IMG/VR virus record: IMGVR_UViG_3300029188_000196
Coordinates: 2,329 to 66,328 of that record
Strand: one strand, 5' to 3'
Origin: a virus
Length of the DNA: 64,000 nt
The translations under genes were made by a program, and so were the position numbers. The notes under the pieces were generated by a model. It saw only the letters and a list, made by a program, of their open reading frames with translations, was not told the origin of the DNA and did no database searches. Positions 10,416 through 54,378 of this stretch are shown in pieces. How positions within the stretch are numbered: position 1 is the first letter of the stretch; the number at the start of each line of letters is the position of its first letter.

Positions 10416-10429
10416 AGTGCTTTCTCCTC

Positions 10430-12661: not shown

Positions 12662-12828
12662 AATTCTACTCTCCTTTCTGCCCTTTATTTCCTTTGGGCA
12701 GTCACATATTCCCTCTGTTTCGTGATATTATCAAGTAAATTTGGCGCAGAAAAACGGAGAATAATCTGTCGGATTATTGTCTTTTCTGCACGATATGTAC
12801 TCCCCGCCCAATAAGGACGGGGACAGAC

Positions 12829-36399: not shown

Positions 36400-38025
36400 C
36401 TAAAAAACGATCATGTCACGTTCGTCGTAGACGCTTCCCTGCTGCTGTCCTTCGTTTCGGATGCAGCGGTCCAGTGCCATGATCGCAGCGACGATACCAT
36501 CGATCTTCTCCGGCGACTTCGCCTTTGTCGGCTTGATGTTGCCCGCCGGGTCGGTATCCACGACCACATTGCCGGCCATCCATGCCATGACCGGGTTGCC
36601 GCCGTGGATAATTCTGCCTTCCATCAGGAGCTTGTAGAACTCCTTGGTAGGCGGGCTCATATCTTTGAAGCCCTGACCAAAAGGCACGACCGTAAATCCC
36701 ATCCCCTCAAGGTTCTGGGTCATCTGCACGGCTCCCCATCGGTCAAAGGCAATCTCTAAAATGTGATAGGTCTTGCCCAGTTCCTCGATGACCTTTTCGA
36801 TAAAACCGTAGTGGATGACATTGCCCTCGGTCGCCATCAGGTAGCCCTGCTGGTACCAGACATCATACGGAACGGATGCCCTGCGCACACGCTGGGGGAT
36901 CGTATTATCCGGTATCCAGAAGAACGGAAGCATGATGTATTTTTCTTCCGAGGTTCTGGGCGGGAACATCAGCACAAAAGCAGTGATGTCTCCGGTGCTG
37001 GACAAGTCCAGTCCTCCATAACAGTCACGGCCTTTGAGAGTTTCCATATCGATAAGCTGGTTGCCGAGGTCATAGATGTGTTCTGGGATGAACCGGGTCA
37101 GCGAGGACACCCACATATTCAGACGGAGCTGCTTGAACACATTCTCCTCTGCCGGATTGTCCGGTGCCTCCTGATACGCATCCCGAACACGCTGGATCTG
37201 AATGGTCTGGCCGAGAGAGGGATTGGCTTTATACCAGTTCGCTTCGTCGTGCCAGTCATCTTCATCCGTTAGTCCGTAGACCACGGGGTAAAAGGTGTGG
37301 TCAATCTTACGTCCAGCCAACAAGTCAAGTGCCTTCATGTGGAGTTCGTAACAGATGCTCTCCTTGTCCGTGCCGGCCGTGGTGATCAGGAAGAACAACG
37401 GCTGCTCACGGGCATCACCGGAGCCTTTGGTAAGGACATCATAGAGCTTTCGGTTGGGCTGGGCATGAACCTCATCCAGCACCAGACCCGACACATTCAA
37501 GCCGTGCTTCGTGCCGACTTCGGCAGACAGGACTTGGTAAAATCCTACATTGCCGTAATTCACGATACGCTTCGTTGCCGCCATAATCTTGCACCGCTTC
37601 AAGAGTGCCGGTGTCATCTGCACCATCTGGTGCGCGACATCAAAGACGATGGATGCCTGCTGGCGGTCGGCGGCAGCACCATAGACTTCGGCAGAGGGTT
37701 CGTTATCGGCAAAGAGCAGATACAGAGCCACCGCAGCGGCAAGTTCGGACTTGCCGTTCTTCTTACCGATTTCGACATAAGCCGTGCGAAACTGACGGTT
37801 TCCTCTCTCGTCCACGATGCCGAACACATCCCGGATGATCTGTTCCTGCCACGGAAGCAGCCAGAACCGTTTTCCCGCCCACTTGCCTTTAGTGTGTCGG
37901 AGGTTCTCAATAAAGGTCACTGCCCGGTCTGCTTTTGCGGCATCGTAGTGGCAGGTTGAAAGCATGAACCGGCTTGGCTTATAGTCCTTCAGTTTCGGAT
38001 AGTTTTTTGGTCTGCACTCTGCCAT
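36400..38025 (-). CDS. Terminase large subunit (Terminase_1 family)
   Basis: ATPase Walker A 'EIGKKNGKSELAA', 'LVLDEVHAQ' Walker B/DE and a C-terminal nuclease region. 541 aa. Confidence 0.9.
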   Translation of the reverse strand: MAECRPKNYPKLKDYKPSRFMLSTCHYDAAKADRAVTFIENLRHTKGKWAGKRFWLLPWQEQIIRDVFGIVDERGNRQFRTAYVEIGKKNGKSELAAAVALYLLFADNEPSAEVYGAAADRQQASIVFDVAHQMVQMTPALLKRCKIMAATKRIVNYGNVGFYQVLSAEVGTKHGLNVSGLVLDEVHAQPNRKLYDVLTKGSGDAREQPLFFLITTAGTDKESICYELHMKALDLLAGRKIDHTFYPVVYGLTDEDDWHDEANWYKANPSLGQTIQIQRVRDAYQEAPDNPAEENVFKQLRLNMWVSSLTRFIPEHIYDLGNQLIDMETLKGRDCYGGLDLSSTGDITAFVLMFPPRTSEEKYIMLPFFWIPDNTIPQRVRRASVPYDVWYQQGYLMATEGNVIHYGFIEKVIEELGKTYHILEIAFDRWGAVQMTQNLEGMGFTVVPFGQGFKDMSPPTKEFYKLLMEGRIIHGGNPVMAWMAGNVVVDTDPAGNIKPTKAKSPEKIDGIVAAIMALDRCIRNEGQQQGSVYDERDMIVF

Positions 38026-38510
38026 CAGCTTCCACCTCCTCCCAGCAGATTCTCCATCTCATCGGCTGCATCCGCAGGACCACCGTCCGAAGCAATGATC
38101 CGGCTTCGGGAGGACGGGGTCAGACCGAACTGCTCTGCAAACTTGTTCATGATCTTCAGATAGGTCTGTGCAATGGACACCTGCGGCACTTGCTGCCAGT
38201 AGCCGGACGGGGTCTTGACGATGGTGCCGTGCTGGGTGATGAACTCCTCAGCCTCTTTCCATCGGGCATAGGCCTGACAGTAACCGGCAAAGGCCGCCAT
38301 ATCCACTTCGGTCAGGATGCCGATGGCTTCCATCTGCTTTGCAAGTCTGCGCCACTCTTTCTTTGCTTCCGGCTCCAGCCACTTCGGACAGGCCGGCGCT
38401 TTCTTATTGGGCTTCGGTTCGCTGGTATTCAGCGGATGCTTGCCCGGATTGCCTTCCAGCTCCTTCATGGCGGTCGGCTTTGGTTTTCTGCCTCTGGTAG
38501 CCATTGGCAT
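38025..38510 (-). CDS. Terminase small subunit (P27 family)
   Basis: 'MATRGRKPKPTAMKELEGNPGKHPLN' is a typical P27 N-terminus. The start is at 38510 or 38504 (GGGAGGAG RBS). The ORF-track N-terminal extension is untranslated leader. Confidence 0.7.
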   Translation of the reverse strand: MPMATRGRKPKPTAMKELEGNPGKHPLNTSEPKPNKKAPACPKWLEPEAKKEWRRLAKQMEAIGILTEVDMAAFAGYCQAYARWKEAEEFITQHGTIVKTPSGYWQQVPQVSIAQTYLKIMNKFAEQFGLTPSSRSRIIASDGGPADAADEMENLLGGGGS

Positions 38511-38632
38511 CTCCTCCCTTCTGCAAAAATGGGTAAAGAAAAAGGACCTCCGAAGAAGTCCTTGAAATCTATATAAAACACATCGGATACGAGGCACAGC
38601 CCCTTTACGGGGCGTGTACCCTTTGGGTGCTG

Positions 38633-39013
38633 TTAGGTGTTGGGGTTGGCTTCCTTCCAAGCCTCGTACTCATCGACCAGCTCCGCTTCCTCGATGACCT
38701 GCCAGACGCTGCAGAAGCGGCTTCTTTGCTGCTCGATCTCCGCTTCCGTCCAGTCTTCCGGCTTGCGGCTCATGTCGTGGTAGGCATCCATCTCCGCCTT
38801 CGTCCGGAAGAATAGGATCTGCTTCAGCTTCAGCGTTTCCTCGTTGTTCCGCAGGCTGTACCGCTTATCCTCTGCCGCCCTGCAAAGGCTTCCGAGGTCG
38901 TTGCAGCCAAGGGTCATGTCCTGCTTGAAGGCGATCTCGATGCCGATCAGCTTCTTCTCGGTGTCGGCTTCCTGAATGTTCTTAAGGTAGGTTTTTGCTT
39001 TGTTCGTCATGGT
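38633..39013 (-). CDS. Hypothetical early protein
   Basis: 126 aa starting 'MTNKAKTYLKNIQEAD'. Preceded by GGAGG and promoter-operator module P1. Confidence 0.5.
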   Translation of the reverse strand, partial: TMTNKAKTYLKNIQEADTEKKLIGIEIAFKQDMTLGCNDLGSLCRAAEDKRYSLRNNEETLKLKQILFFRTKAEMDAYHDMSRKPEDWTEAEIEQQRSRFCSVWQVIEEAELVDEYEAWKEANPNT

Positions 39014-39060
39014 CTGTATCCTCCGTATGTTTTGTTTTCCGTAGGGCTTTTCCCTTCGTT

Positions 39061-39110
39061 GTGACTGTATATTACCGTCACTGCCGGATACTATCAAGCG
39101 GCTATACTGC
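39061..39110 (-). promoter_or_regulatory. Repeated early promoter-operator module, copy P1 (TTGATA-17-TAATAT with GTGAC-N11-GTCAC)
   Basis: Read on the minus strand: CTTGATAG, a 17-nt spacer, TAATAT. The palindrome GTGACGGTAATATACAGTCAC overlaps the -10. Confidence 0.6.
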
Positions 39111-39210
39111 ACGATCATACACACCTCTTTTTGTCGGATTTATGTGTATTTACACGCCGGAAGAATCCGCCACTACGAGCAAAAGCTCCCGAAGGAGCCC
39201 TGCCCATTTC

Positions 39211-39495
39211 TTAGTGTGCGTTTTTAATGCACCACTCGATTGCGTGTCCGGCATCCGTGTAGGTCTCATCGGAAATCTTCAGAAGCTCCAGCCGGCACTC
39301 AATCGGTGACCAGCCTTCCTCTGGGTCTTCCACAAATCCGTATACCGCTCCCTCCAGCATGCCGTTCCAGTTCATCTGGGCTACCAGAACCCGGTCACCG
39401 AACTGCATGATGCTGTCGTAGCAAGGTCTGAGTCGGTCATAGAAACTCTCGATGCTGATGTTGTTTTCCGGGAAGTCGATCAAATGCATTTTCAT
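39211..39495 (-). CDS. Hypothetical early protein
   Basis: 94 aa from 'MKMHLIDFPENN'. Preceded by module P2 and a GGAGG RBS. Confidence 0.5.
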   Translation of the reverse strand: MKMHLIDFPENNISIESFYDRLRPCYDSIMQFGDRVLVAQMNWNGMLEGAVYGFVEDPEEGWSPIECRLELLKISDETYTDAGHAIEWCIKNAH

Positions 39496-39540
39496 GGTAA
39501 AATCCTCCGTGTTTTCGTTATTCCTTGGGGCTTTCCCCTT

Positions 39541-39595
39541 TCGGTATGTGCATATTACCGTCAGGTGCAAAGGATAGCAAGCGGCTAAAGTACAC
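39541..39595 (-). promoter_or_regulatory. Early promoter-operator module, copy P2 (TTGCTA-17-TAATAT)
   Basis: Conserved module sequence. A GGGGAAAGCCCC 5'UTR hairpin lies downstream. Confidence 0.6.
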
Positions 39596-39629
39596 GATCT
39601 TCTGCCCGGAATACCAAGCAGAATGTACA

Positions 39630-39836
39630 TCACTCTGCATCCTGCTCCATGAGTTCCACAATGGTATCGTAGAAGAACTGCGGGTCATATGCCAGCGGCT
39701 CCCGTCCGGCTTCCTTGTCCATCCTGATCTGGTCTTCCACCATATCCTCGGCATCCTCCAGCGTGAAGGCATCCTTATCGCTGTCATCCATGTGGTTGTA
39801 GATTTCCACGATGGTATCCATCATCCGTTCTTCCAT
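39630..39836 (-). CDS. Small acidic hypothetical protein
   Basis: 69 aa, very acidic ('DDSDKDAFTLEDAEDMVEDQIRMDKEAG'). GGAGGG RBS 8 nt upstream. Confidence 0.45.
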   Translation of the reverse strand: MEERMMDTIVEIYNHMDDSDKDAFTLEDAEDMVEDQIRMDKEAGREPLAYDPQFFYDTIVELMEQDAE

Positions 39837-39885
39837 GTGCTTTTCCCTCCTGGCGCATCCACGCCGCCACATCTGCCCCTGTCTG

Positions 39886-39951
39886 GGGCGTTACCGGTTC
39901 ATCCGGATTGTTTTGCCACCCGTGGCACAAGCCCCTGTGTGGGGCTGTGTC
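39886..39951. repeat. Two GC-rich hairpins GCCCC-TGTNT-GGGGC about 36 bp apart
   Basis: GCCCCTGTCTGGGGC (39886-39900) and GCCCCTGTGTGGGGC (39937-39951) lie between two early genes. No U-tract follows, so they are not canonical terminators. Confidence 0.5.
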
Positions 39952-39964
39952 GGGGGCTGCCGGT

Positions 39965-40156
39965 TTATCTGTTCATCCGTCCCAGCAGGTAGGCTTCCTC
40001 CATTGCTTTCTGGATGCCCCAGACCGGAACCTCGATGAAGTCCTCGCTGTCATTGTCGCGGACTTCGAGGTCTCCCCGGCTGTCTACCGCTGCCATCAGG
40101 CGCTTGGCGATCTCCAGCAGGGCTTTTTCCTCTTCCTTGGTGATGTTCTTCTTCAT
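39965..40156 (-). CDS. Hypothetical early protein
   Basis: 64 aa from 'MKKNITKEEEKALLEIAKRL'. Preceded by module P3. Confidence 0.45.
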   Translation of the reverse strand: MKKNITKEEEKALLEIAKRLMAAVDSRGDLEVRDNDSEDFIEVPVWGIQKAMEEAYLLGRMNR

Positions 40157-40186
40157 GGTGGTTTCCTCCGTTTTTCTTGGTTTTCC

Positions 40187-40240
40187 GTTTCGGTATGTGC
40201 ATATTACCGTCACTTCCACACACTATCAAGCGGCTATACT
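40187..40240 (-). promoter_or_regulatory. Early promoter-operator module, copy P3 (TTGATA-17-TAATAT)
   Basis: Conserved module sequence. Confidence 0.6.
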
Positions 40241-40327
40241 ACACAAAGATGGGAAATCAGAACTGTGAGTATTACGGTAGAAGAAAAGGGCTGCCGTTTT
40301 TCGGCAAGCCCCATGTGTTTCTCTGGC

Positions 40328-40792
40328 TTAGTAGTCTTCTTCGTCCTCGTAATCTTCCTCGTCGTAGTCCTCTTCGTCCCAGCCGTCTTCCTCTTCTTCC
40401 ATCCAGCTGTCATCCCGGTCTTCTTGCTCATCCTTGAAGTCCCACATGTCTTTGGTCGGCTGGTTTCGGAGGTCTGGGTTCTGTTCGATGTAGTCGGCGA
40501 CCGCTCCCTCAAGGGTATCCAGCACCTTTTCGTAAGCATCCTCGCTGAAGATTTCCCAAAGGGCAACCGTCAGGTCTGCGATTTCGTGGTTGCCTTTTGC
40601 AATCAGGAATCGGGCCGGCGGGTTGCAGGTTTCCTTGCCGTAGGCAATGTTCACCATGTCGCCGTCGTTGCAGAATCGGTATCCGATTCGGTTGATGGCT
40701 CTGACCAGTTCTCCGGCGAGGCTTTCTGCCTTGCCCATGTCCGGCACCAGTTCCTTAAAAAGTTTGCTCAGTCGCTCTTCGTTCTTCGTCAT
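40328..40792 (-). CDS. Acidic early protein with poly-Asp/Glu C-terminus (candidate DNA-mimic / anti-restriction protein)
   Basis: 154 aa ending 'DDSWMEEEEDGWDEEDYDEEDYEDEEDY'. Preceded by module P4. Confidence 0.45.
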   Translation of the reverse strand: MTKNEERLSKLFKELVPDMGKAESLAGELVRAINRIGYRFCNDGDMVNIAYGKETCNPPARFLIAKGNHEIADLTVALWEIFSEDAYEKVLDTLEGAVADYIEQNPDLRNQPTKDMWDFKDEQEDRDDSWMEEEEDGWDEEDYDEEDYEDEEDY

Positions 40793-40822
40793 TGTCGTAT
40801 CCTCCGTTTTTGTTGTTTTCCC

Positions 40823-40878
40823 CTTTCGGTGACTGTATATTACCGTCACCTCGGAGCACTATCAAGTGGCTATACTAC
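40823..40878 (-). promoter_or_regulatory. Early promoter-operator module, copy P4 (TTGATA-17-TAATAT with GTGAC-N11-GTCAC)
   Basis: Conserved module sequence including the full palindrome. Confidence 0.6.
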
Positions 40879-40994
40879 ACGATCATTCGGCCCTGTAATT
40901 GTCATATTCATGTGCTTTTCATGCCAGCTTTCGGAAGACAGACACGAGCAAAAGGCTGGTCGATTCCAGCCCCTTGCGCCTGTCGGTCTTGCCC

Positions 40995-41255
40995 TTATCG
41001 GATAATTTCGAGGTAGCTGATGTTGCCCCAGCAATCCGTACCCTTGAAGCGGATGCGCTTTTCGTTCTCCCTGTCGAGGGTGAATTTCCGCAGGAGCTTC
41101 ATCTTCTGGATACGGTTCAGAAGGTCCTTGCCGTTCTTCGCATCCTCAACGGCATCCCTGATCTCGACCACCGCACTGTCGCTTCCGTACCAAAGGTTGC
41201 TGAGTGCCTCCGGAATTCCGTTTGCAAGGTAAAGGTTGATTTTTGTGTAGGTCAT
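40995..41255 (-). CDS. Hypothetical early protein
   Basis: 86-aa ORF, second gene of a two-gene unit behind P5. Confidence 0.45.
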   Translation of the reverse strand: MTYTKINLYLANGIPEALSNLWYGSDSAVVEIRDAVEDAKNGKDLLNRIQKMKLLRKFTLDRENEKRIRFKGTDCWGNISYLEIIR

Positions 41256-41270
41256 GTTTTTGTTCTCCTC

Positions 41271-41477
41271 TCAGAATGTCATCGTTTCCAGAATCTCATC
41301 CATGCCTGTCTCCCAGTCATGGCGGCTAAGTTCAATTTTGCTGTACATCTCTGCGCTGTCCGGCTCATCGAAAAGCCGGAAGCATTCTCTTGCCAGCTCC
41401 TCGCTAGTGTGCTGCTGGATTTCATCCGGCTGTCCATCCAGCCGTGTAAAGGTGATCTCGTAAGTGTAGCGTTCCAT
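41271..41477 (-). CDS. Hypothetical early protein
   Basis: 68 aa, 'MERYTYEITFTRLDGQPDEIQQH...'. Preceded by module P5. Confidence 0.45.
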   Translation of the reverse strand: MERYTYEITFTRLDGQPDEIQQHTSEELARECFRLFDEPDSAEMYSKIELSRHDWETGMDEILETMTF

Positions 41478-41496
41478 GTTCTTTGCCCCTTTCGTT

Positions 41497-41550
41497 TTGG
41501 TAGCTGTATATTACCGTCACTGCCGGATACTATCAAGCGGCTAAAGTACA
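41497..41550 (-). promoter_or_regulatory. Early promoter-operator module, copy P5 (TTGATA-17-TAATAT)
   Basis: Nearly identical to P1 over more than 50 bp. Confidence 0.6.
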
Positions 41551-41616
41551 CGATCATCTGCGCCCTGATCTGGTGGATTTATGTGTTTATCCGGGGAGGT
41601 TTCCCTCCCCGTTTTC

Positions 41617-41793
41617 TTAGCTGAACATCTCTGCCGTGTCATCGTCAATCCAAAGGTGCATGCCATCTGCTTCCATGATCGCGTGGTCTTCATGAACCTC
41701 GGTGATGATTCCTTCCCGGCTTCCGCTACCATCGAATTCGTTCCAGTGCCATGTTGTCTTTCTTCCTTTTTTCCATGTTCTCCAATCAGCCAT
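41617..41793 (-). CDS. Hypothetical early protein
   Basis: 58 aa from 'MADWRTWKKGRK'. Preceded by module P6. Confidence 0.4.
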   Translation of the reverse strand: MADWRTWKKGRKTTWHWNEFDGSGSREGIITEVHEDHAIMEADGMHLWIDDDTAEMFS

Positions 41794-41816
41794 TCTGCTG
41801 TCCTCCTTTGCTTTTT

Positions 41817-41866
41817 GTAGCTGTATATTACCGTCACTGCCCTGTGATAGCAAGGCCATAAAACCT
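41817..41866 (-). promoter_or_regulatory. Early promoter-operator module, copy P6 (TTGCTA-17-TAATAT)
   Basis: Conserved module sequence. Confidence 0.55.
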
Positions 41867-42002
41867 CATATTATCAACGATCTTCGTCCCTCATGTTTGG
41901 TACATATATGACCCCTGATTGACTTGCTATATATGTGTTTCTGCGGCATTATACACACAACGAAAGCAAAGAAAACCAAACCAAAAACGGAGGACAAAAA
42001 CC

Positions 42003-42254
42003 ATGAAAAAGACCATTACAGAAGTTGAAACCGCAATCGAAAACCGCATCGCAGAGCTTGAAGAAGAATACGAGCTGGACATTTACGACCGCAACGACAT
42101 TCGGGAAGAAGAATACCAGAAAGCCGGATGGCGGCACGACCCTTTCCCAGAGGAGCTTGAGGAAAAGGACGAAGAAGAGGAAGAGGATTGGCACTACCAC
42201 AGCATGGAGGAACGACTGAACGAGGTCGGCATGAGCATGAGGGATTTCTTCTAA
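42003..42254 (+). CDS. Small acidic coiled-coil protein (only plus-strand gene in the prophage)
   Basis: 83 aa from 'MKKTITEVETAIENRIAELEEEY' with an 'EEKDEEEEEDWHYH' acidic tail. GGAGG RBS 9 nt upstream. Confidence 0.5.
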   Translation: MKKTITEVETAIENRIAELEEEYELDIYDRNDIREEEYQKAGWRHDPFPEELEEKDEEEEEDWHYHSMEERLNEVGMSMRDFF

Positions 42255-42373
42255 GGAATCCCAAGAGGCTCCCCAGCAGAGGCTGGGGCTCTGCCTCGTA
42301 TCCCCCGTTTTGGTTTGGTATGATACACAAAACCGCTGCCAGATGTTTGTGTACATTATGGCGGCGGTTTTCC

Positions 42374-42402
42374 TTGCTATCGTTGCTTTCCAGAGGTAAT
42401 AT
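42374..42402 (+). promoter_or_regulatory. Inverted-orientation copy P9 of the early promoter module (TTGCTA-17-TAATAT, plus strand)
   Basis: Same module on the opposite strand. It fires into the 42412-42447 hairpin and runs antisense to the minus-strand genes at 42453..43099. Confidence 0.45.
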
Positions 42403-42411
42403 ACAGTAAAC

Positions 42412-42447
42412 TGGAAGGGGGTTCTCATTCTTTTGAGGCCCCCATTT
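42412..42447. terminator. Bidirectional terminator hairpin between convergent genes
   Basis: GGGGG-ttctcattcttttgagg-CCCCC, followed by ATTTTCC on the plus strand. Confidence 0.55.
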
Positions 42448-42452
42448 TCCGT

Positions 42453-42644
42453 CTAATCGGCTTCGCCCTGTATTGCCTGATGCATCACCCTGCGGTTATG
42501 CGCTCTGGCTTTCTTTTTCAGATCCCTTTTCCATCTGCGGATGGTCACCGCCTTGCAGTGGTTTCTCGACCATTCGTATTCATCCAGAACGTATCTGCCG
42601 CCGTGTTCCCTCTCGCCATAAGCCGGCATCTTTCTGTGTCCCAT
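42453..42644 (-). CDS. Small basic hypothetical protein
   Basis: 63 aa, Arg/Lys/His-rich. Confidence 0.4.
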   Translation of the reverse strand: MGHRKMPAYGEREHGGRYVLDEYEWSRNHCKAVTIRRWKRDLKKKARAHNRRVMHQAIQGEAD

Positions 42645-42715
42645 AGGCTCCTCCTGTTAAACTAAGCCCTCCCGGTCTTTTCTGGCCGAGAGGGTATTTT
42701 TCTGATTGTGGTATC

Positions 42716-43099
42716 TTATTCCGGTTTCGTGCCGTCATCCATCCGGATGATACTCATCTGCCCGAACATGCTGACGAATGCTTCCGGCACCCAGAAGCGT
42801 TCCGTATATTTGCGGATGAGGTCTTCCGGCAGCTCTGCGAAATCCTCCTCGCCCAATCCGCAAATGAAGAAGTTTCCCTTGATGGGCTGCTTCAGCTCTG
42901 GGATGTATCTGCTGAACGGCTTCTCAGTGAACAGCCCGTTGTCGTCCGTTACCAATGCGACTGCATCGGCTTCCCACGGGTAGGTTGCCGTAATGCAGTC
43001 GCATTCGAGGATGCGGTAGAATTCATCCAGCGAATCCTCGATGTCGACCACCTGCGGATGCTCCATAGGCTTGATCAGAAGGACTTTCATTCGACCCAC
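42716..43099 (-). CDS. DUF3846-like protein
   Basis: 'MKVLLIKPMEHPQVVDIEDSLDEFYRIL' N-terminus resembles DUF3846, a family common in early/anti-restriction regions of phages and conjugative elements. Family assignment is from memory. Confidence 0.45.
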   Translation of the reverse strand: MGRMKVLLIKPMEHPQVVDIEDSLDEFYRILECDCITATYPWEADAVALVTDDNGLFTEKPFSRYIPELKQPIKGNFFICGLGEEDFAELPEDLIRKYTERFWVPEAFVSMFGQMSIIRMDDGTKPE

Positions 43100-43106
43100 C
43101 CCGCTT

Positions 43107-43556
43107 TCACGATTCCGTATCCATGCATTCTTTCAGCGCACTTTCGAGGATGTGCATCGGGAACTTGAATGTCTTGTAGCCGTCATGCAGAACTTTGTAG
43201 TAATGCAGACTCGGTGCGCGCCGACCGAAGTCGTTTTCCATAATGTAGACCATTGCGGTCACCATCTCCGGCTCTGCGCCCTCACGGAGCAGTTCGATGT
43301 TCAGTTCTTCCTTGCGGTAGTAGGTCGGGTAGCCCTCGTAGGTGTCGAGGTTCTTTTCATCCCTCTCGGAAATCTCCCACACCAGAACCGGGGTGTTCTT
43401 CTTCGGATTCGGTGCAATGGTGGCGCAGCCCCGGAACAAAAGCTCCCAGCCGGCCAGCACCGCCTGTCCTGCGATTCTGGCATCCGGACACCGGTGTGCC
43501 ATCTGCTCCACCGACAGGTTGCTGCCGTAGGCAATGTAGTATTTCTTGTTTTTCAT
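43107..43556 (-). CDS. Gamma-glutamyl cyclotransferase-like (GGCT/AIG2-like) protein
   Basis: 'KYYIAYGSNLSVEQMAHRCPDA...VLAGWELLF' matches the AIG2/GGCT fold signature (YGSN(L/M) motif). 149 aa. Confidence 0.65.
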   Translation of the reverse strand: MKNKKYYIAYGSNLSVEQMAHRCPDARIAGQAVLAGWELLFRGCATIAPNPKKNTPVLVWEISERDEKNLDTYEGYPTYYRKEELNIELLREGAEPEMVTAMVYIMENDFGRRAPSLHYYKVLHDGYKTFKFPMHILESALKECMDTES

Positions 43557-43686
43557 TATTTCTTCGCGCTCCTTTCGTTTTCGCCCTTGTAAGGTGGTAT
43601 GGTATATATGCCTCTGTTCGGCTTAATTATCAAGGTCGATGAGCATCATATACTGCACAATGTTTTCTACCTGTGATCGTGTACTT

Positions 43687-43917
43687 TTACATTGGCGGCA
43701 GTTCACACGCCGTTACTTCGACTCCCTGGAAATCTTCGGTTCCCAGTTCGATTTGGCTGTCCTGCCACCAATCCTCCGCAACACGCTCGGCTTCCTGAAC
43801 GGTCGGCTCTTTCATTTCGGATTCATACACGGTGATGGTTCTCTGGTAGGTTTCGGTAATGGTCACCTTGAACGCTCTGCCATTCGGCTGGTTCTTTGTC
43901 TTGCTGGTATTGTTCAT
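43687..43917 (-). CDS. Hypothetical protein
   Basis: 76-aa ORF downstream of amidoligase-1, preceded by a GGGCGG..CCGCCC hairpin and a GAGGAAGGGAG RBS. Confidence 0.4.
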   Translation of the reverse strand: MNNTSKTKNQPNGRAFKVTITETYQRTITVYESEMKEPTVQEAERVAEDWWQDSQIELGTEDFQGVEVTACELPPM

Positions 43918-43990
43918 AGCTTTCGCTCCCTTCCTCTACCACCTAAAGGGCGGTTGTCCGCCCATAAGGTTCTTTCAGTTTGCGTAAGGC

Positions 43991-44926
43991 TTACCGCCAT
44001 GCGCTGTTCCCTTCCATGTTGTTCAGGTAGTATTCTCTGGCAGTCTTGAATTCGTCACCGATGAAGCCAAGCCTCAGCATCCAGCACCGCATTGCGTACT
44101 TTTCGTTCTCGGTCTGCTGGGGTTTAGGGCTTGCTGTTCTGACCATCTTGGCAAGCTGGTTGATGGCAAGGCAAAGCTGGATGAATGACTTGACCTGTCC
44201 AGCATGCATTCCGTTCTGCTTGCCATCGTGAGGGCAGTCGAATTGAAAAAGCCGAAATTCGATGGTGTGGTGTCCGTGGAAGAAGCTGTGCAGGTTGCAA
44301 ACTCGATATCGTGACGAATTGTAGTGGGTGTACCGATTCCCGTCCGCATTCTGTGTCTGATACCAGAGGTCTTCAAGCTCCTCCATCGTTCTGGGCTTCT
44401 TTCGATTGACCCCTTCCAGAAACTTGGGGTCAACCGTTCGGCAGTAACGGTTCATTCGGTTGCGGTCAATTCGGATTGCTTTTGCCAGCTGGCTTTCATG
44501 GGCCGCCATGATGTTCACGAGGTTTCGGATGGTCTGCGGTGTGTGTCCCTCCCCGCTGATATGAACATGAACTCCCGCCATTCTGGTGTAATCACTTTTC
44601 ATTCCGGCTTTCCGCAGTGCTCTTACAACCCCCTGCAGAAGTTCCATGTCCTCGTAATGAAGAATGGGGCTGACCATTTCACATTTCTGGCTTTCCGGGC
44701 CGGTAATGCTGACATCCTTCTGAAACTTCCACTCCCTGCCCTGCGCATCCCACGCACTCCACGCATCGTAGCCGTTGCGTCCTGCAGTGTATTCGTAGCG
44801 GTCGGTCTCAAAATACCGTGCCGCCGTTCTGGCAGCTTTCTCTCTCGTGATATTGTTACCCTCGATTTCAATACCGAATGTAGGCTTCTTCATGGCTTCA
44901 ATCTGCTCTCTTGTTTTATCATTCAT
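43991..44926 (-). CDS. Amidoligase (GCS2/COG2170-like carboxylate-amine ligase, 'Amidoligase_2')
   Basis: 'KKPTFGIEIEGNN' N-terminal strand and 'GVHVHISGEGH' HxH motif, as in the glutamate-cysteine-ligase-2 / PF12224 family. 311 aa. Preceded by module P7. Confidence 0.7.
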   Translation of the reverse strand: MNDKTREQIEAMKKPTFGIEIEGNNITREKAARTAARYFETDRYEYTAGRNGYDAWSAWDAQGREWKFQKDVSITGPESQKCEMVSPILHYEDMELLQGVVRALRKAGMKSDYTRMAGVHVHISGEGHTPQTIRNLVNIMAAHESQLAKAIRIDRNRMNRYCRTVDPKFLEGVNRKKPRTMEELEDLWYQTQNADGNRYTHYNSSRYRVCNLHSFFHGHHTIEFRLFQFDCPHDGKQNGMHAGQVKSFIQLCLAINQLAKMVRTASPKPQQTENEKYAMRCWMLRLGFIGDEFKTAREYYLNNMEGNSAWR

Positions 44927-44948
44927 GGTATGTTCTCCTTTGGCTTTC

Positions 44949-44997
44949 TTCCCTTTCGGTGTGTGTATATTACCGTCAGGAACGGACTAATTCAAGG
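44949..44997 (-). promoter_or_regulatory. Early promoter-operator module, copy P7 (TTGAAT-17-TAATAT)
   Basis: Conserved module sequence. Confidence 0.55.
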
Positions 44998-45065
44998 CCA
45001 TAAAAGAACATATAGTCGACAAATATACAGTAGAAAAATCGTGTACATTTCTGCGATTTATCCGC

Positions 45066-45094
45066 TTGATAATGTACATTTGAAGAGTTAATAT
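45066..45094 (+). promoter_or_regulatory. Inverted-orientation promoter P10 (TTGATA-17-TAATAT, plus strand), antisense to the amidoligase-2 3' end
   Basis: It shares the CCGCTTGATA -35 context with the early modules. No RBS-preceded ORF lies downstream. Confidence 0.4.
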
Positions 45095-45151
45095 CGGTAC
45101 AATGGAAGAAGGTCTCGCATATTTCCGGCCCCCATTGGGGGGCTTGGGAGC

Positions 45152-46300
45152 TTACGCTCCCGCCTCCAGCATCTGCGCCGTGTCTGCCTCACAGTCGGGC
45201 TGTGTTGGCTCGGCATTTGCCGATGCGACCGTTACCCCAGAGGGGAAACCGCCCTCCTGTGCCGCCTGTTTCGCGGCCTTGAGTGAATCTCGTTTTGCCT
45301 TTTCCCTTGCGAGGAACTTCTGTGCTTCCTCATCCGTGCGGAAAGCCGCATGCCCGGAAAGATTCTCCATGAGGATCTTGCGAGTTGCTTTGAAATCCGA
45401 CCCATTCATGCCCAGACGGATGAGCCATGTGCGGAGCGCATATTTTTCATTTTCATCGTTGACATTCTTAGCCTGAATGCGCTTCTGGCTGATGGCCTGC
45501 TGGTTCATCAGAACGGCAAGCTGTGCGAAAGCTGTCAGGTGTTCGTGGTCCGGTGCAGTCGGGAAGCCAGTGAAAATGACCTTCTCGGTGGTGATTTTCA
45601 AGCCTTCCAATGCCGCGCCATGCTCTGCTTCATAACCATTGACTGCGCTGATGAAGTTCATGGTGGCAAGGGTGCAAGTGTCATCCTTCAGCTTGTCGAC
45701 CAGCCCCTCTTCCACATGAAAGTGGCCGCCCGTTGCTTTCCCGATAAGATTTCCGCGGCTGTAAAGGAGGTTGACCAGATTACGCAGGGTCACACCGTTG
45801 TGCTGACTGACCAGGAAGGAAAGTTCCAAATCCAGAGGAACTTCATCCTGCTGGTCTTCCTCTTCCGTTTGCTCTTCGGTCTCCTGCTCCCCTGTATCCA
45901 ACTCTTCTTCCGGCTCATCCTCTGCTGTGTCGTCCGGCTCCGGTACTTCCGCAGGTTCATTCTGCTCTGCAAAATCATCTGCTTCGGATTCCTGCTCATC
46001 GGGAACTTCCGGTTCTGCTTCAGTCGGCTGTTCCTCTTCCGGTGCCGACTCTGCGTTCTCCGGCTGAACATCCGTGCTCTCGGCGTTGCGAATCAGCCCC
46101 TCGTTCAGCAGGCTCGTCAACAGCTCTGCATCCGCATTCTCCGGTTCGACCAGCAGGTTTCCATCCCGGTCGATGGTATAGTCGCCAATATCATAGGCAT
46201 ACAGAGGTGCTTTGGTGTAGTAAGGGTGGATGCCAGTCAGCTCCTCCATGCGTCTTGCGAGGGTCTTGCGCTCGGCTACATTCAGTTCAAATTTCAACAT
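45152..46300 (-). CDS. Amidoligase paralog with a large acidic insert (possibly divergent/inactive, or a partner/substrate)
   Basis: The C-terminal half aligns with the 43991..44926 protein ('GGHFHVEEG' ~ 'GVHVHISGEGH'; 'ENEKYALRTWLIRLGMNGSDFKATRKILMENLSGHAAFR' ~ 'ENEKYAMRCWMLRLGFIGDEFKTAREYYLNNMEGNSAWR'). An acidic Glu/Pro/Thr-rich insert of about 130 aa lies after the N-terminal domain. Preceded by module P8. Confidence 0.6.
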   Translation of the reverse strand: MLKFELNVAERKTLARRMEELTGIHPYYTKAPLYAYDIGDYTIDRDGNLLVEPENADAELLTSLLNEGLIRNAESTDVQPENAESAPEEEQPTEAEPEVPDEQESEADDFAEQNEPAEVPEPDDTAEDEPEEELDTGEQETEEQTEEEDQQDEVPLDLELSFLVSQHNGVTLRNLVNLLYSRGNLIGKATGGHFHVEEGLVDKLKDDTCTLATMNFISAVNGYEAEHGAALEGLKITTEKVIFTGFPTAPDHEHLTAFAQLAVLMNQQAISQKRIQAKNVNDENEKYALRTWLIRLGMNGSDFKATRKILMENLSGHAAFRTDEEAQKFLAREKAKRDSLKAAKQAAQEGGFPSGVTVASANAEPTQPDCEADTAQMLEAGA

Positions 46301-46346
46301 AATTCGTCGCTCCTTTTTTAATTAGTCTTTTGTGCATTCCGATGTT

Positions 46347-46395
46347 CTTTTCGGTAGCACATATATCCCTCTAAACCGAGCAAATAGCAAGGCCA
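46347..46395 (-). promoter_or_regulatory. Early promoter-operator module, copy P8 (TTGCTA-17-GATATA)
   Basis: Conserved -35 context GGCCTTGCTAT; the -10 is more divergent. Confidence 0.45.
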
Positions 46396-46522
46396 TTTCC
46401 CGATATTCTTCATGTTCAACCATTTACACAACACGGTTCAAAAGCTGTTGTGTAAATGGTCCTGATATGTATGCCCACCATATCACTGGGTAGCTGTCTA
46501 CCTAGTAATATAGCGGGCCAGT

Positions 46523-48694
46523 TTATTCTTCCAGTCCTGCGCACCATGCGATGCCTGCCAGAACAAAGTACACACATGGAAGTGCGACACCGTTACCCCA
46601 GAGTTTGTACTCAGCCGCATCCGAATACGGATCTGCCAGCCATTTCCGGATTTGCTTCTCCGTCTTCGGCTTCTTCGCATGGGTCACGATCTTACGGTGT
46701 GTTTCAAACACATCTGCCCAGAATGCCAACTCTTCCTCGGTTGGATTTTCCGTTCCAAGGTCTCTGCACCACCAATCCGGGAATCCTTGAAGTCTGGCAC
46801 ACTCGGTCGGTGTCAGGCGGCGGACGGTGTAGGTCACAGGTGTGGACTGTGCTTCCGGGTTGTCGATGACAAGACGGTCATTGAAAGCGTCCTGCCCATT
46901 GAAGCCGCTGGGATGTGCCCCGCTCGCCACGGTACCAGCCACACCCTCGTTCAGATGCGGTGCCGGTGCAATGGTGGTCGGGTCTTTGTAATCCCGTGCC
47001 ATCAGAGTCGGAGATACATTCTCCTCTACTCGCATAAAGGAGCCAGTGGTCATGGCATACACATCTTCCGGTGCGCAGACTGCATGACGGTCAGTGGCGT
47101 CCAGCGTAAAGCAGACATCCTCATTGACCCCATCTCCCTGTGGACCATTCTCGTCCTTGCGGCCGATCATGTTACCCTGCAGGACGAAGGTCTGCATCTG
47201 GTCGCTTCGGGTCGCCATGAGTGCGCCAGACTTTCCATGCAGGTCAATCAGCTCATTGCGCTGATTCACATGGAAAGCAGTCACATCTTCCGGCTGTACC
47301 ACAAAGGTCTGCTGTTTCATTCCCGGCTCTGCTGCCAGTGCCGCTGACTTGTCCCCCAGATCCCGGACTTCATCTCTCTGGTTCTGGGTAAAAGCAACAG
47401 GCTCTACCACACAGATGCCGCCCTGATTGCAAGTCGGAGCACCGCCGCTGCGGTCCAGTGTCCGGGAAGTTTCCGCTTCATAGAAACCGCTATGCGGATT
47501 GTCGGACATCATGGAATGGCTGGCTTTCGAGCAGACACCATAGCATTTCGGGACGAACAGTGTCTGGTCGTTGTTACAGCCAAGGGTGGCCGATTTTTCT
47601 TCCTGCCAGATGACTCCCTTGCCGCCGCCCTCACACCCGGAACGGATCTTCAGCGTGACTGCCGGAGAATTATCTGCACCATCCATGACCAGCGGAACAT
47701 TGCCACCGCCCGTACCGCATCGGCTGGTCAGCGTTTGAACCTTGCCATCTTCGGAAATCTTCACCCTGCTGTCTGCCGGATGATTTTCCAATGCAATGGC
47801 GGCAGGTACGACACCTGCCCGGAGGGTCGGTGACCGTTCTTCCTCATATCCGATGCTTCTGGCATTTGCGGAATGCTCAGTACAGAAACCAGCAGCTTCA
47901 AGAATCTCTCCCGGCTTGTTCAGGCCGATTCTTCCTGCACAGCTTGCCGTTCCAATGCCGCTTTCAGAACTGGCGGCAGCTCTTTGCCACGCACGGAAGC
48001 TCTCCGGAGAATACCGAGACAGGCCTTCGGACTTAAATAGTACTTTTCCGGCACTTTGACCTGCAAAGTCTGCGACAAGGAACAGACGTTTTCTTCGTTG
48101 AGCCAAGCCGAAGTGTTGAGCATCGAGAGTTCTGTATGCCACGCTCCATCCGTCTCCCAGAATAATATCGGCGGTTGCCCACTTTCCCTTTTCAGGCATA
48201 GGCAGCGGTGGCGCTTCTGGCTCTTTGACTGCGATGATTTCTTCAAGGACCGACTTAAAGTCCTCACCGGATTTGCTGGAGAACAGTCCGGGAACGTTCT
48301 CGACGACAAAATATCGTGGGTTTTCTCCATCGGTTGCTTCCCTCATTTCTTTAATAATCCTGACCGCCTCATAAAACAGACCACTTCGGGTTGTCTTTTC
48401 TCCGCCGTGGTCGATATGCTGAACGCCCTCTCTTTTTCCAGCCACAGAAACGGACTGGCAAGGGAAACCACCTGTGATGATATCTACAGGAGGGAGTTCC
48501 GCTCCACGAAGACTGGAAATATCTCCGTAGTGGATTACCTGCGGCAGTCGTTTTGTAGTCACACGAATTGGGAATGGTTCAACTTCACAGTTCCAGACCG
48601 GCTGGATTCCTGCAAGCAGCCCTCCCAATTCAAAACCCCCGGAACCTGCAAAGAGGCTGCCGAGGGTCAAGGTCTTATTCTGTTCTGTACTCAT
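46523..48694 (-). CDS. DNA (cytosine-5)-methyltransferase, large (723 aa; probably multispecific phage-type)
   Basis: Motif I 'LFAGSGG', motif IV 'GFPCQSVSVAG', motif VI 'FVVENVPGL'. A long variable region suggests several target-recognition domains. Confidence 0.85.
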   Translation of the reverse strand: MSTEQNKTLTLGSLFAGSGGFELGGLLAGIQPVWNCEVEPFPIRVTTKRLPQVIHYGDISSLRGAELPPVDIITGGFPCQSVSVAGKREGVQHIDHGGEKTTRSGLFYEAVRIIKEMREATDGENPRYFVVENVPGLFSSKSGEDFKSVLEEIIAVKEPEAPPLPMPEKGKWATADIILGDGWSVAYRTLDAQHFGLAQRRKRLFLVADFAGQSAGKVLFKSEGLSRYSPESFRAWQRAAASSESGIGTASCAGRIGLNKPGEILEAAGFCTEHSANARSIGYEEERSPTLRAGVVPAAIALENHPADSRVKISEDGKVQTLTSRCGTGGGNVPLVMDGADNSPAVTLKIRSGCEGGGKGVIWQEEKSATLGCNNDQTLFVPKCYGVCSKASHSMMSDNPHSGFYEAETSRTLDRSGGAPTCNQGGICVVEPVAFTQNQRDEVRDLGDKSAALAAEPGMKQQTFVVQPEDVTAFHVNQRNELIDLHGKSGALMATRSDQMQTFVLQGNMIGRKDENGPQGDGVNEDVCFTLDATDRHAVCAPEDVYAMTTGSFMRVEENVSPTLMARDYKDPTTIAPAPHLNEGVAGTVASGAHPSGFNGQDAFNDRLVIDNPEAQSTPVTYTVRRLTPTECARLQGFPDWWCRDLGTENPTEEELAFWADVFETHRKIVTHAKKPKTEKQIRKWLADPYSDAAEYKLWGNGVALPCVYFVLAGIAWCAGLEE

Positions 48695-54374: not shown

Positions 54375-54378
54375 CGGC

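What the first reader, a model, noticed from the sequence alone, without database searches (positions are those of the whole stretch)
42374..45094. Two inverted-orientation copies of the early promoter that would make antisense RNAs
Promoter copies at 42374-42402 and 45066-45094 point the opposite way, on the plus strand. The first fires straight into a bidirectional terminator hairpin and runs antisense to the gene at 42453..42644. The second runs antisense to the 3' end of amidoligase-2. Neither has a downstream RBS-supported ORF. They could produce short antisense or regulatory RNAs that join the early regulon. Alternatively they are relics of the recombination that spread the module.
Basis: inference. 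Interest (0 to 1): 0.5.

Follow-up and report, generated by a model that had tools for sequence, protein, structure and literature searches.

The report
Two conserved gene-less reverse-facing phage promoters
In this gut-Clostridia prophage, two real copies of the phage's own promoter face against all the genes and have no gene behind them; their conservation in about 80 related elements suggests they make short non-coding RNAs at the ends of opposing operons, but nobody has yet seen the RNAs.

Summary
42374-42402 (TTGCTA-N17-TAATAT) and 45066-45094 (TTGATA-N17-TAATAT) are plus-strand members of the phage's repeated promoter family. A scoring matrix built only from distant relatives ranks them among the gene-driving copies and far above background.

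They are not decaying relics. Both keep position and orientation in about 80 related loci, including isolates of Blautia, Clostridium and Faecalibacterium. The -35 hexamer and four of the six -10 positions are invariant, while spacer and flanks vary.

Relatives that lack the small plus-strand gene I call p83 (42003-42254) have 189 family promoters, none inverted. Nearly all of those drive an RBS plus ORF. These two are therefore the only gene-less copies.

- Copy 1 always follows p83. It fires into a covarying GC hairpin (42412-51). The predicted RNA is about 40 nt and stops 2 nt short of the 63-aa gene, and that gene is missing in a third of relatives.
- Copy 2 is the idle arm of a duplicated two-way promoter cassette. 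It has three hairpins and no U-tract here, so it probably reads antisense into the 382-aa gene.

No RNA data exist, and function is inferred. The nearest analogues are lambda OOP-type cis-antisense RNAs and T4 PeSL cassettes. Interest is moderate.

The parts
42349..42359 (+). Upstream GTGTACATTAT box of copy 1. It starts 25 nt before the -35 hexamer, as in the wider family.
42374..42402 (+). Copy 1 promoter core: -35 TTGCTA (42374-79), 17-nt spacer ending AGAGG, -10 TAATAT (42397-402).
   Evidence: matrix score 22.7. In 48 distinct homologous sequences the -35 is invariant in 47, and -10 positions 1, 2, 5 and 6 are invariant.
42409..42451 (+). Predicted copy-1 transcript. It starts at A42409/42410 with the conserved 5' AACUGGAAG. 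The core hairpin is 42417-42443, followed by AUUUU at 42444-48. The extended stem spans 42412-42451. The same hairpin lies behind the convergent 63-aa gene.
   Evidence: -20.4 kcal/mol, z = -3.9. Covariation (pair 54-61: AU 24, GC 21, GU 3). TSS position and RNA length are inferred.
42453..42644 (-). Convergent 63-aa basic protein gene with a strong RBS. Its stop codon lies 2 nt beyond the hairpin. The gene is present or absent among relatives.
41924..42254 (+). Third + strand family promoter (41924-41952, TTGCTA-N17-CATTAT) and its gene p83 (42003-42254, 83 aa, acidic, no Pfam hit). Copy 1 always lies 80-200 nt after it.
41825..41853 (-). Minus-strand family promoter forming a divergent pair with the p83 promoter. 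The -35 starts are 71 nt apart.
44967..44995 (-). Minus-strand family promoter (TTGAAT-N17-TAATAT) driving the amidoligase gene 43991-44926. It is the divergent partner of copy 2, with the same 71-nt geometry.
45041..45049 (+). Upstream GTGTACATT box of copy 2, 25 nt before the -35 hexamer. A second TGTACA lies in the spacer at 45073-78 and a GTAC at 45097-45100.
45066..45094 (+). Copy 2 promoter core: -35 TTGATA, 17-nt spacer ATGTACATTTGAAGAGT, -10 TAATAT (45089-94).
   Evidence: matrix score 14.4. In 35 distinct homologues the -10 is TAATAT in 34 and the -35 is TTGATA in 33.
45101..45162 (+). Predicted 5' part of the copy-2 transcript, starting at A45101/45102 with 5' AAUGGAAGA. It has three hairpins: 45104-26, 45127-44 and 45145-62. 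The last encloses the stop codon of the 382-aa gene (45152-54). There is no U-tract in this phage.
   Evidence: (-29.9 kcal/mol, z = -2.3). The ORF from ATG 45102 does not keep its frame among relatives.
45152..46300 (-). It has no Pfam family, and its C-terminal ~70 aa resemble the amidoligase C-terminus.

Best explanation
The two sites are functional, selectively maintained promoters of the phage's own family that have no gene behind them. Each is a miniature transcription unit: upstream GTGTAC box, -35, -10, a purine-rich 5' end (AACUGGAAG / AAUGGAAGA), then GC-rich hairpin(s).

Copy 1 belongs to the small plus-strand module p83 -> copy 1 -> hairpin. It most likely gives an RNA of about 36-42 nt ending at the hairpin plus AUUUU (42417-42448). 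Read-through p83 mRNA would run into the same hairpin, which also lies just behind the convergent minus-strand operon.

Copy 2 is the otherwise idle arm of a duplicated bidirectional promoter cassette. The other arm of that cassette drives the amidoligase gene. The paralogous cassette at 41825-41952 drives p83.

In distant relatives copy 2 is followed by a canonical hairpin plus UUUUCUUUU terminator, which would give an RNA of about 45 nt. In this phage the U-tract is lost, so the transcript probably continues antisense into the 3' end of the 382-aa gene.

Inferred mode of action: both work in cis at operon boundaries. They would pair with, or collide with, transcripts arriving from the opposing operon. 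That would set the 3' ends or stability of those transcripts, or keep read-through out of p83 and the next promoter.

Shown: family membership, conservation, lack of a gene, hairpin covariation, linkage to p83, cassette paralogy.

Inferred: promoter activity, transcription start sites, RNA lengths, any regulatory effect.
For: - Family membership was scored with an independent matrix.
- The layout [- promoter / + promoter-p83 / copy 1 / ... / - promoter / copy 2] recurs in nearly all of 70 viral contigs and 12 bacterial genome contigs. These include Blautia faecis, Clostridium fessum and Faecalibacterium intestinale isolates, plus MAGs with only 57-63% p83 identity.
- The pattern of constraint is that of a promoter. 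For copy 1 / copy 2, entropy is 0.02 / 0.05 bits at -35 and 0.00 at -10 positions 1, 2, 5 and 6. It is 0.79 at copy 1's -10 positions 3 and 4, 0.64 in copy 1's spacer and 1.00 in its 3' flank.
- In p83-less relatives, 189 promoters are on the gene strand and 0 are inverted. 113 of 117 distinct ones have an RBS plus ORF within 130 nt, and the other four appear to be misses of my search pattern. So gene-less inverted copies are not a by-product of the family.
- The copy-1 hairpin is stable (z = -3.9) and covaries: AU 24 / GC 21 at one pair, CG 42 / GC 3 at the next, and no shuffle reached the observed score.
- Copy 1 and its hairpin stay together whether or not the 63-aa gene is present.
- Copy 1 is always 80-200 nt after p83 on the same strand: 61 of 61 in a reverse search.
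- The two divergent cassettes align over 157 nt at 74% column identity, within and between phages.
- L160, L161 and L150 show a canonical + strand terminator after copy 2.
- There is no conserved reading frame behind copy 2, and there is no ATG behind copy 1 in nearly all sequences.
Against: - There is no transcript evidence of any kind.
- The hexamers match sigma-70 consensus only 8-9 of 12.
- Some relatives carry weaker -10 variants of copy 1: TAAGAT 9, TAACAT 4, TATCAT 2, TAAAAT 1.
- The copy-1 hairpin fails the consensus terminator scan. Its U-tract is absent in 8 of 48 sequences (the L124 clade).
- Wobble pairs do not assign the hairpin to one strand: 86 cells pair only on the + strand, 56 only on the - strand.
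- A covariance model built from copy 1 does not find copy 2 in this window, so the two RNAs are not one structural family here.
- Most loci are closely related to each other, so they are not independent observations. The argument for selection rests mainly on the L124-L138 clade and on L150 and L159-L161.
- Conservation could reflect a DNA-level role rather than an RNA product.
Confidence: 0.5

Rival explanations
1. The sites are relics. The promoter/terminator cassettes are recombination hot spots, as PeSLs are in T4-type phages. The two inverted copies are debris from an inversion or insertion that brought in the inverted p83 cassette. They are carried along without a function of their own.
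For: - Cassette spacing differs among relatives, so genes are gained and lost between promoter modules.
- The 63-aa gene comes and goes exactly between two hairpins.
- A minus-oriented leader/RBS-like remnant lies between p83 and copy 1, at 42296-42325.
- L246 carries a fragment matching the copy-2 module in a foreign context, with the junction inside the upstream box.
- Inverted copies occur only in the clade that has p83.
- PeSL-mediated shuffling is documented in PMC2839356 and PMC4122927.
Against: - Neutral relics should have decayed at the divergence sampled: neighbouring proteins are down to 43-63% identity and flanks are unalignable.
- Instead the -35 hexamer, -10 positions 1, 2, 5 and 6, the AGAG motif, the transcript start and the hairpin are kept, while spacer and flanks vary.
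- Distant relatives keep or improve a + strand terminator after both copies.
Confidence: 0.15
2. The sites have a DNA-level role and the RNA does not matter. RNA polymerase, or the regulator that presumably binds the GTGTAC boxes, sits at these reverse-facing promoters. It would act as a roadblock or head-on collision partner that stops read-through from the upstream minus-strand operon where the hairpins are poor terminators. For copy 2, it might alternatively couple to its divergent partner through supercoiling or shared operators.
For: - Both copies sit exactly at the 3' end of a minus-strand operon whose hairpin lacks a good U-tract.
- The 71-nt divergent geometry is kept in every cassette.
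- Copy 2 has GTAC-containing boxes at about -60, -28 and +1 that are conserved even in the spacer, where entropy is 0.25 bits.
- The strand of the hairpin is ambiguous.
Against: - Other minus-strand gene junctions in the same region manage without a reverse promoter.
- The transcribed 5' segment and the hairpin are as conserved as the promoter, which a pure roadblock does not need.
- Distant relatives have a proper + strand terminator, which implies a defined RNA.
Confidence: 0.2
3. Copy 2 expresses a leaderless micro-protein. An ATG (45102) lies where transcription should start, and the first ~13 codons (MEEGLAYFxAPIG) are similar among relatives.
For: The ATG begins 8 nt after the -10 hexamer in 34 of 35 distinct sequences, and the N-terminal codons are similar.
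Against: - ORF length ranges from 11 to 443 aa, and three different frames follow the hairpin because of 1-nt indels.
- One sequence lacks the ATG.
- The paralogous copy 1 has no ATG in all but one sequence.
- The similarity is explained by the conserved RNA or DNA elements (GGCCCCC reads as Ala-Pro).
Confidence: 0.03

Closest known systems
Bacteriophage lambda OOP RNA (short cis-antisense RNA convergent with cII)
   Same: It is a small non-coding RNA gene with its own promoter and hairpin end, placed tail-to-tail with a phage operon so that its transcript is complementary to the 3' end of the opposing mRNA (my own knowledge; OOP/cII literature such as PMC5869508 was listed but not read here).
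   Different: No sequence or Rfam relationship. The copy-1 RNA would overlap only the 3' untranslated hairpin, not the coding sequence. Copy 2 lacks its own terminator in this phage. The promoters are copies of the phage's general gene promoter rather than a dedicated one. The host is a Gram-positive Clostridia lineage. No RNA has been observed.
PeSL (promoter-early stem-loop) cassettes of T4-type phages
   Same: Both are repeated composite stem-loop plus sigma-70-type promoter (plus SD) modules between small variable genes. Indels and replacements occur at the module boundaries (PMC2839356, PMC4122927).
   Different: The phage group and sequences are unrelated. PeSLs are described as sitting upstream of, and driving, the downstream gene. 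The two copies here are gene-less and inverted. They are conserved as such, which recombination debris would not be.
3'-UTR-derived sRNAs with their own promoter that share the mRNA's terminator (DapZ/MicL type in enterobacteria)
   Same: Copy 1 lies just after the p83 coding sequence on the same strand. It would use the next hairpin as a shared 3' end, and it is inseparable from p83. The comparison rests on my own knowledge of that class.
   Different: The promoter lies after the stop codon and after a first hairpin, not inside the coding sequence. No seed or target is known. It is not known whether p83 mRNA really reaches that hairpin.
Bidirectional (divergent) promoter regions in phage and bacterial regulatory switches
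   Same: Two back-to-back promoters have a fixed spacing (71 nt between -35 starts) and shared upstream boxes.
   Different: In the copy-2 cassette only one arm has a gene. The cassette is duplicated within the genome. No regulator has been identified.

Membership tests
This phage lineage's repeated promoter family (TKGMTA-N17-TAATAT with GTGTA box) | -35-like and -10-like hexamers with a 17-nt spacer | tested here: met
   Exact matches at 42374-42402 and 45066-45094.
This phage lineage's repeated promoter family (TKGMTA-N17-TAATAT with GTGTA box) | Extended similarity (GTGTA box 25 nt upstream of -35, AGAG/GACGG before -10, purine-rich start), scored with a matrix from independent relatives | tested here: met
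   Scores of 22.7 and 14.4 against a member range of -0.4 to 46.7 and a background of -128 +/- 22.
This phage lineage's repeated promoter family (TKGMTA-N17-TAATAT with GTGTA box) | Same strand as the genes, followed by SD plus ORF within about 130 nt | tested here: not met
   Both are on the opposite strand and have no conserved ORF. In p83-less relatives, 189 of 189 are on the gene strand and 113 of 117 have an RBS plus ORF.
cis-antisense small RNA genes of phages (lambda OOP type) | Own promoter convergent with a protein-coding operon | tested here: met
   Promoter by sequence and conservation only. Activity was not measured.
cis-antisense small RNA genes of phages (lambda OOP type) | Own intrinsic terminator giving a defined short RNA | tested here: inconclusive
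   Copy 1 has a stable hairpin plus AUUUU but fails the consensus scan. Copy 2 has no U-tract in this window, but has a canonical one in L160, L161 and L150.
cis-antisense small RNA genes of phages (lambda OOP type) | Transcript overlaps the coding 3' end of the opposing gene | tested here: inconclusive
   The copy-1 RNA would stop 2 nt before the stop codon of the 63-aa gene, which is absent in at least 28 of 80 loci. Copy 2 overlaps the 382-aa gene only if it reads past 45151.
cis-antisense small RNA genes of phages (lambda OOP type) | Detected transcript and effect on the target mRNA | not testable with these tools
   No RNA data are available.
PeSL cassettes (T4-type phages) | Composite stem-loop terminator plus strong sigma-70-like promoter in intergenic regions between small variable ORFs | tested here: met
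   The architecture is seen throughout 38.6-45.1 kb. The definition is from PMC2839356.
PeSL cassettes (T4-type phages) | Member of the T4-like myovirus hyperplastic regions, homologous to the described PeSL motifs | tested here: not met
   The window is a Clostridia prophage with serine recombinases, and its TerL is closest to Clostridium and Streptococcus phage records. There is no sequence relation.
PeSL cassettes (T4-type phages) | Mediates modular shuffling by recombination between copies | tested here: inconclusive
   Indels at module boundaries and one foreign-context fragment are consistent with it. No recombination product was demonstrated.
Any described RNA family (Rfam 15) | Covariance-model match | tested here: not met
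   No match at E <= 1 in 38000-47000 on either strand.
Type I toxin-antitoxin (antisense RNA versus small toxin gene) | Small hydrophobic toxin opposite the RNA, inherited together with it | tested here: not met
   The 63-aa protein is basic and hydrophilic. It is absent from at least 28 of 80 loci that keep copy 1.

The most novel reading that the evidence does not exclude
Copy 1 and copy 2 may be paralogous genes for an undescribed class of ~40-nt phage small RNAs. They would be found in a prophage lineage that spans Lachnospiraceae and Oscillospiraceae-type gut bacteria. Their 5' ends (AAYUGGAAGRGGG) resemble the shared 5' leader of all mRNAs made from the same promoter family (ACCGAAAGGGAAAAC). 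They could therefore act in trans as leader mimics or decoys for whatever factor reads that leader. Alternatively they could be dedicated duplex- or collision-based insulators that define operon ends where intrinsic terminators are weak.
Probability: 0.15. Interest if true: 0.6.

Novelty: new member of a known kind. Interest (0 to 1): 0.4.

Why it matters
Regulation of temperate phages of gut Clostridia is almost unstudied. This lineage is common in human gut viromes, with hundreds of related contigs. Nearly identical copies sit in cultured Blautia, Clostridium and Faecalibacterium strains.

Two conserved gene-less promoter-hairpin units would be the first candidate non-coding RNA genes for this lineage. 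They offer a simple, testable case of how a phage that gives almost every small gene its own promoter handles operon boundaries and its one reverse-oriented gene.

If the RNAs are not made, the sites still show that promoter-shaped DNA is kept under selection for another reason. Either way the prediction can be tested directly in available isolates.

Tried and rejected
- **Rfam.** A scan of 38-47 kb at E <= 1 found nothing.
- **Phage GenBank records.** There is only one unannotated fragment, covering window 42780-46400. No characterised phage carries p83, so no published transcript map can be borrowed.
- **Assigning the hairpin to one strand.** Wobble pairs were counted and the result is ambiguous, 86 against 56. 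Per-sequence folding energies favour the + strand in most clades and the - strand in the L124 clade.
- **RNAalifold.** On an unguided alignment it gave a poor consensus (-3.7 kcal/mol) because of register shifts, so I counted pairs on a stated structure instead.
- **One RNA family for both copies.** A covariance model from copy 1, plus three c1-like copy-2 sequences from distant relatives, finds only copy 1 in the window. Copy 2 here has been remodelled.
- **Trans-target search.** The 13-nt 5' motif matches the window no more often than chance: 7 matches against 6.3 expected.
- **Type I toxin-antitoxin with the 63-aa gene.** Rejected: the protein is hydrophilic and dispensable.
- **A minus-strand promoter overlapping copy 1 (ACGATA-N17-CATAAT).** Considered by eye. 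It is weak and not conserved in the L124 clade, so it was dropped.
- **A phage-encoded sigma factor or HTH regulator to explain the family.** Pfam scans of most window proteins found none.


Full report
**Setting.**
The window is a temperate siphovirus-type prophage of gut Clostridia, with essentially all genes on the minus strand. From high to low coordinates, it encodes:
- DNA polymerase A, DUF932, a VapE primase-helicase and an SNF2 helicase;
- a MazF toxin and a SAM synthetase;
- three DNA methylases;
- a 382-aa protein, an amidoligase, DpnD/PcfM, a GGACT cyclotransferase and DUF3846;
- a string of very small genes;
- the terminase, the portal, structural genes and an endolysin;
- large serine recombinases.

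Only one unannotated GenBank phage fragment matches the region, covering window 42780-46400.

**The observation.**
- TTGCTA-N17-TAATAT at 42374-42402;
- TTGATA-N17-TAATAT at 45066-45094.

Both are on the plus strand. The degenerate pattern occurs 10 times in the window against 0.16 expected.

I built a position matrix from 114 distinct promoters found in 78 relatives that share only 65-72% amidoligase identity. It scores the two sites at 22.7 and 14.4 bits. That is inside the range of the window's gene-driving members (-0.4 to 46.7). Background has mean -128 and sd 22.

Both sites also carry the family's GTGTAC box 25 nt before the -35 hexamer, the AGAG motif before the -10 hexamer, and a purine-rich start.

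A third plus-strand member, at 41924-41952, drives a real plus-strand gene. This is p83 (42003-42254), an acidic 83-aa protein with no Pfam family.

**Conservation.**
I searched for p83 relatives and found 70 viral contigs and 12 bacterial genome contigs. The genome contigs include:
- isolates of Blautia faecis, Clostridium fessum and Faecalibacterium intestinale, with 98-99% p83 identity;
- MAGs with 57-63% p83 identity.

Nearly all of these loci show the same map:
1. a minus/plus divergent promoter pair, with -35 starts 71 nt apart;
2. p83;
3. copy 1, about 120 nt after p83;
4. 1.6-3.7 kb of minus-strand genes;
5. a second minus/plus divergent pair with the same 71-nt geometry, whose plus arm is copy 2.

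Copy 1 was aligned from 48 distinct sequences and copy 2 from 35. In copy 1 the -35 hexamer is TTGCTA in 47 of 48. Positions 1, 2, 5 and 6 of the -10 hexamer never vary. Positions 3 and 4 vary in copy 1, giving TAATAT, TAAGAT, TAACAT, TATCAT and TAAAAT. The middle of the copy-1 spacer and its 3' flank vary freely. Entropies run 0.02, 0.00, 0.79, 0.64 and 1.00 bits respectively.

This is the pattern expected of a working promoter, not of drifting debris. It holds in clades whose neighbouring proteins are only 43-63% identical and whose flanks cannot be aligned.

**The two copies are exceptions in their family.**
In the 78 relatives without p83, the matrix finds 189 promoters on the gene strand and none on the other strand. 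Of 117 distinct promoters, 113 are followed by an RBS and an ORF within 130 nt. The remaining four look like misses of my search pattern. The family rule is therefore one promoter, one gene, same strand. Copies 1 and 2 are the only gene-less, inverted members, and they occur only in the p83 clade.

**Copy 1.**
If transcription starts at A42409/10, the RNA begins AACUGGAAG. It folds into a long imperfect hairpin (42412-42451, core 42417-42443, -20.4 kcal/mol, z = -3.9), followed by AUUUU.

The hairpin covaries. One pair is AU in 24 sequences, GC in 21 and GU in 3, with none unpaired. The next pair is CG in 42 and GC in 3. No shuffle reached the observed covariation score. In the L124 clade and in L141, the outer stem is re-formed with different 3' sequences.

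The stop codon of the convergent 63-aa gene lies 2 nt beyond the hairpin. A terminated RNA would therefore be antisense only to that gene's 3' untranslated hairpin. The 63-aa gene is also missing from at least 28 of 80 loci that keep copy 1 and its hairpin. In those loci the unit abuts the terminator of the DUF3846 gene.

The constant partner of copy 1 is p83. A reverse search of IMG/VR with a copy-1 pattern returned 64 new loci. All 61 that had enough upstream sequence carry p83 on the same strand, 80-200 nt upstream.

The hairpin is not a consensus terminator on either strand, with 4 T in 8 nt both ways. Wobble pairs do not decide which strand it serves.

**Copy 2.**
The minus promoter at 44995-44967 drives the amidoligase gene. 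Copy 2 is its back-to-back partner.

This cassette is a paralogue of the one that drives p83. The four cassettes of the window and of the distant locus L160 align over 157 nt at 74% column identity.

The predicted transcript starts AAUGGAAGA and forms three hairpins. The last hairpin encloses the stop codon of the 382-aa gene. No U-tract follows in this phage, so the RNA should continue antisense into that gene.

In L160, L161 and L150 the same unit has a single GC hairpin followed by UUUUCUUUU or AUUUUC. That is a canonical plus-strand terminator about 45 nt from the start, and it looks like copy 1. The two copies therefore seem to descend from one promoter-plus-hairpin unit.

In the window's clade copy 2 has since been remodelled. 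A covariance model built from copy 1 does not detect it there.

An ATG sits at the predicted start (45102). The reading frame behind it changes among relatives, and ORF length ranges from 11 to 443 aa. A protein product is therefore unlikely.

**Interpretation.**
The best-supported reading is that both sites are active, selected promoters that make short non-coding plus-strand RNAs at the ends of opposing operons.
- Copy 1 is part of the p83 module.
- Copy 2 is the second arm of a duplicated bidirectional cassette.

How they act is inferred. They may pair with the 3' ends of the convergent mRNAs, or interfere with read-through from them. I put 0.5 on this reading. I put 0.2 on a DNA-level role in which the RNA is irrelevant. 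I put 0.15 on the relic hypothesis and 0.03 on a leaderless micro-protein. The remainder is unassigned.

The relic hypothesis has some real support:
- genes come and go at module boundaries;
- a minus-oriented leader remnant lies at 42296-42325;
- one contig, L246, carries a copy-2 fragment in a foreign context.

Even so, it does not explain hexamer-specific conservation over this divergence.

**Comparison with known systems.**
In architecture the family resembles the PeSL promoter/stem-loop cassettes of T4-type phages (PMC2839356, PMC4122927). It is unrelated to them in sequence and phage type, and PeSLs drive genes.

In predicted function, the closest analogue is lambda OOP, a short RNA convergent with cII. 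Copy 1 also resembles 3'-UTR sRNAs that have their own promoter. There is no Rfam match.

I file this as a new member of a known kind. The interest is moderate: the conservation is striking and the prediction is easy to test, but nothing here departs from known principles and no transcript has been seen.

Noticed in passing
window 41825-41952 and 44967-45094; L160 4819-4946 and 9091-9218: The genome holds two paralogous divergent promoter cassettes with identical geometry (71 nt between the two -35 starts) and 74% column identity over 157 nt. The duplication is conserved in distant relatives.
   Followed up: yes
window 42003-42254 (+): p83 is the only plus-strand protein gene in the region. 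It is 83 aa, very acidic (DEEEEEDW run) and has no Pfam hit. It has no tblastn match in the GenBank phage collection. A DNA-mimic or anti-restriction role is only a guess.
   Followed up: partly
window 42452-42690; compare L001 7210-7330: The 63-aa basic protein gene with its RBS is present or absent exactly between two hairpins. It is present in 51 related loci and absent in at least 28. It has no promoter of its own, so it would depend on read-through of the DUF3846 terminator.
   Followed up: partly
window 39069-41551 (-) versus 42349-42402, 45041-45094 (+): Five minus-strand family promoters between 39097 and 41536 have the GTGTA box 15 nt before the -35 hexamer. The two gene-less copies and the family consensus from distant relatives have it at 25 nt. 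The difference is one helical turn.
   Followed up: partly
window 45041-45100; family-wide in L003-L080: GTAC-containing boxes recur at about -60, inside the -35/-10 spacer (about -28) and around +1. In copy 2 they lie 32 and about 22 nt apart. This suggests operators for a shared regulator, but no HTH or sigma gene was found by Pfam in the window.
   Followed up: partly
L151, L152, L153 (genome contigs): p83 and the promoter layout around it are 98-99% identical in isolates of Blautia faecis and Clostridium fessum (Lachnospiraceae) and Faecalibacterium intestinale (Oscillospirales). This points to very recent transfer or an unusually broad host range.
   Followed up: no
window 12706-12734 (-), genes 10430-12661 and 9099-10433: The best-scoring family promoter in the window (46.7 bits) sits after the endolysin and drives two tandem large serine recombinases. 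The family is therefore not simply 'early'.
   Followed up: partly
window 45145-45162: The stop codon of the 382-aa gene lies in the loop of a conserved hairpin (GGGAGC-GUAA-GCUCCC on the mRNA). A second GC hairpin follows directly, with no U-tract.
   Followed up: no
window 45152-46300 versus 43991-44926: The 382-aa protein has no Pfam family. Its residues 255-321 are 37-44% identical to the C-terminus of the amidoligase (shared ENEKYAxR motif). The N-terminal half is a long acidic low-complexity stretch.
   Followed up: no
window 42296-42325 (-): A minus-oriented leader/RBS-like remnant (ACCAAACCAAAACGGGGGATACGAGG) lies between p83 and copy 1. It resembles both the p83 leader in inverted orientation and the RBS region at 40795-40814. 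It has no start codon behind it.
   Followed up: partly
L246 3170-3480; L230 4700-5700: L246 carries a fragment that matches the window's copy-2 module from about 45049 onward, including the last 27 codons of the 382-aa gene. It sits in an otherwise unrelated context, with the left junction inside the upstream box. L230 is a deletion variant that keeps copy 2 but lacks p83 and copy 1.
   Followed up: partly
window 41592-41611: A GC hairpin directly behind the minus-strand gene 41617-41793 has its T-run on the plus strand (CGGGGAGG-TTTC-CCTCCCCG TTTTCTT). It would terminate plus-strand rather than minus-strand transcription.
   Followed up: no
window 53970-54470 and 52519-53631: A MazF/PemK-type toxin gene and a SAM synthetase gene lie in the replication/modification part of the prophage. 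A possible antitoxin partner for MazF was not checked.
   Followed up: no
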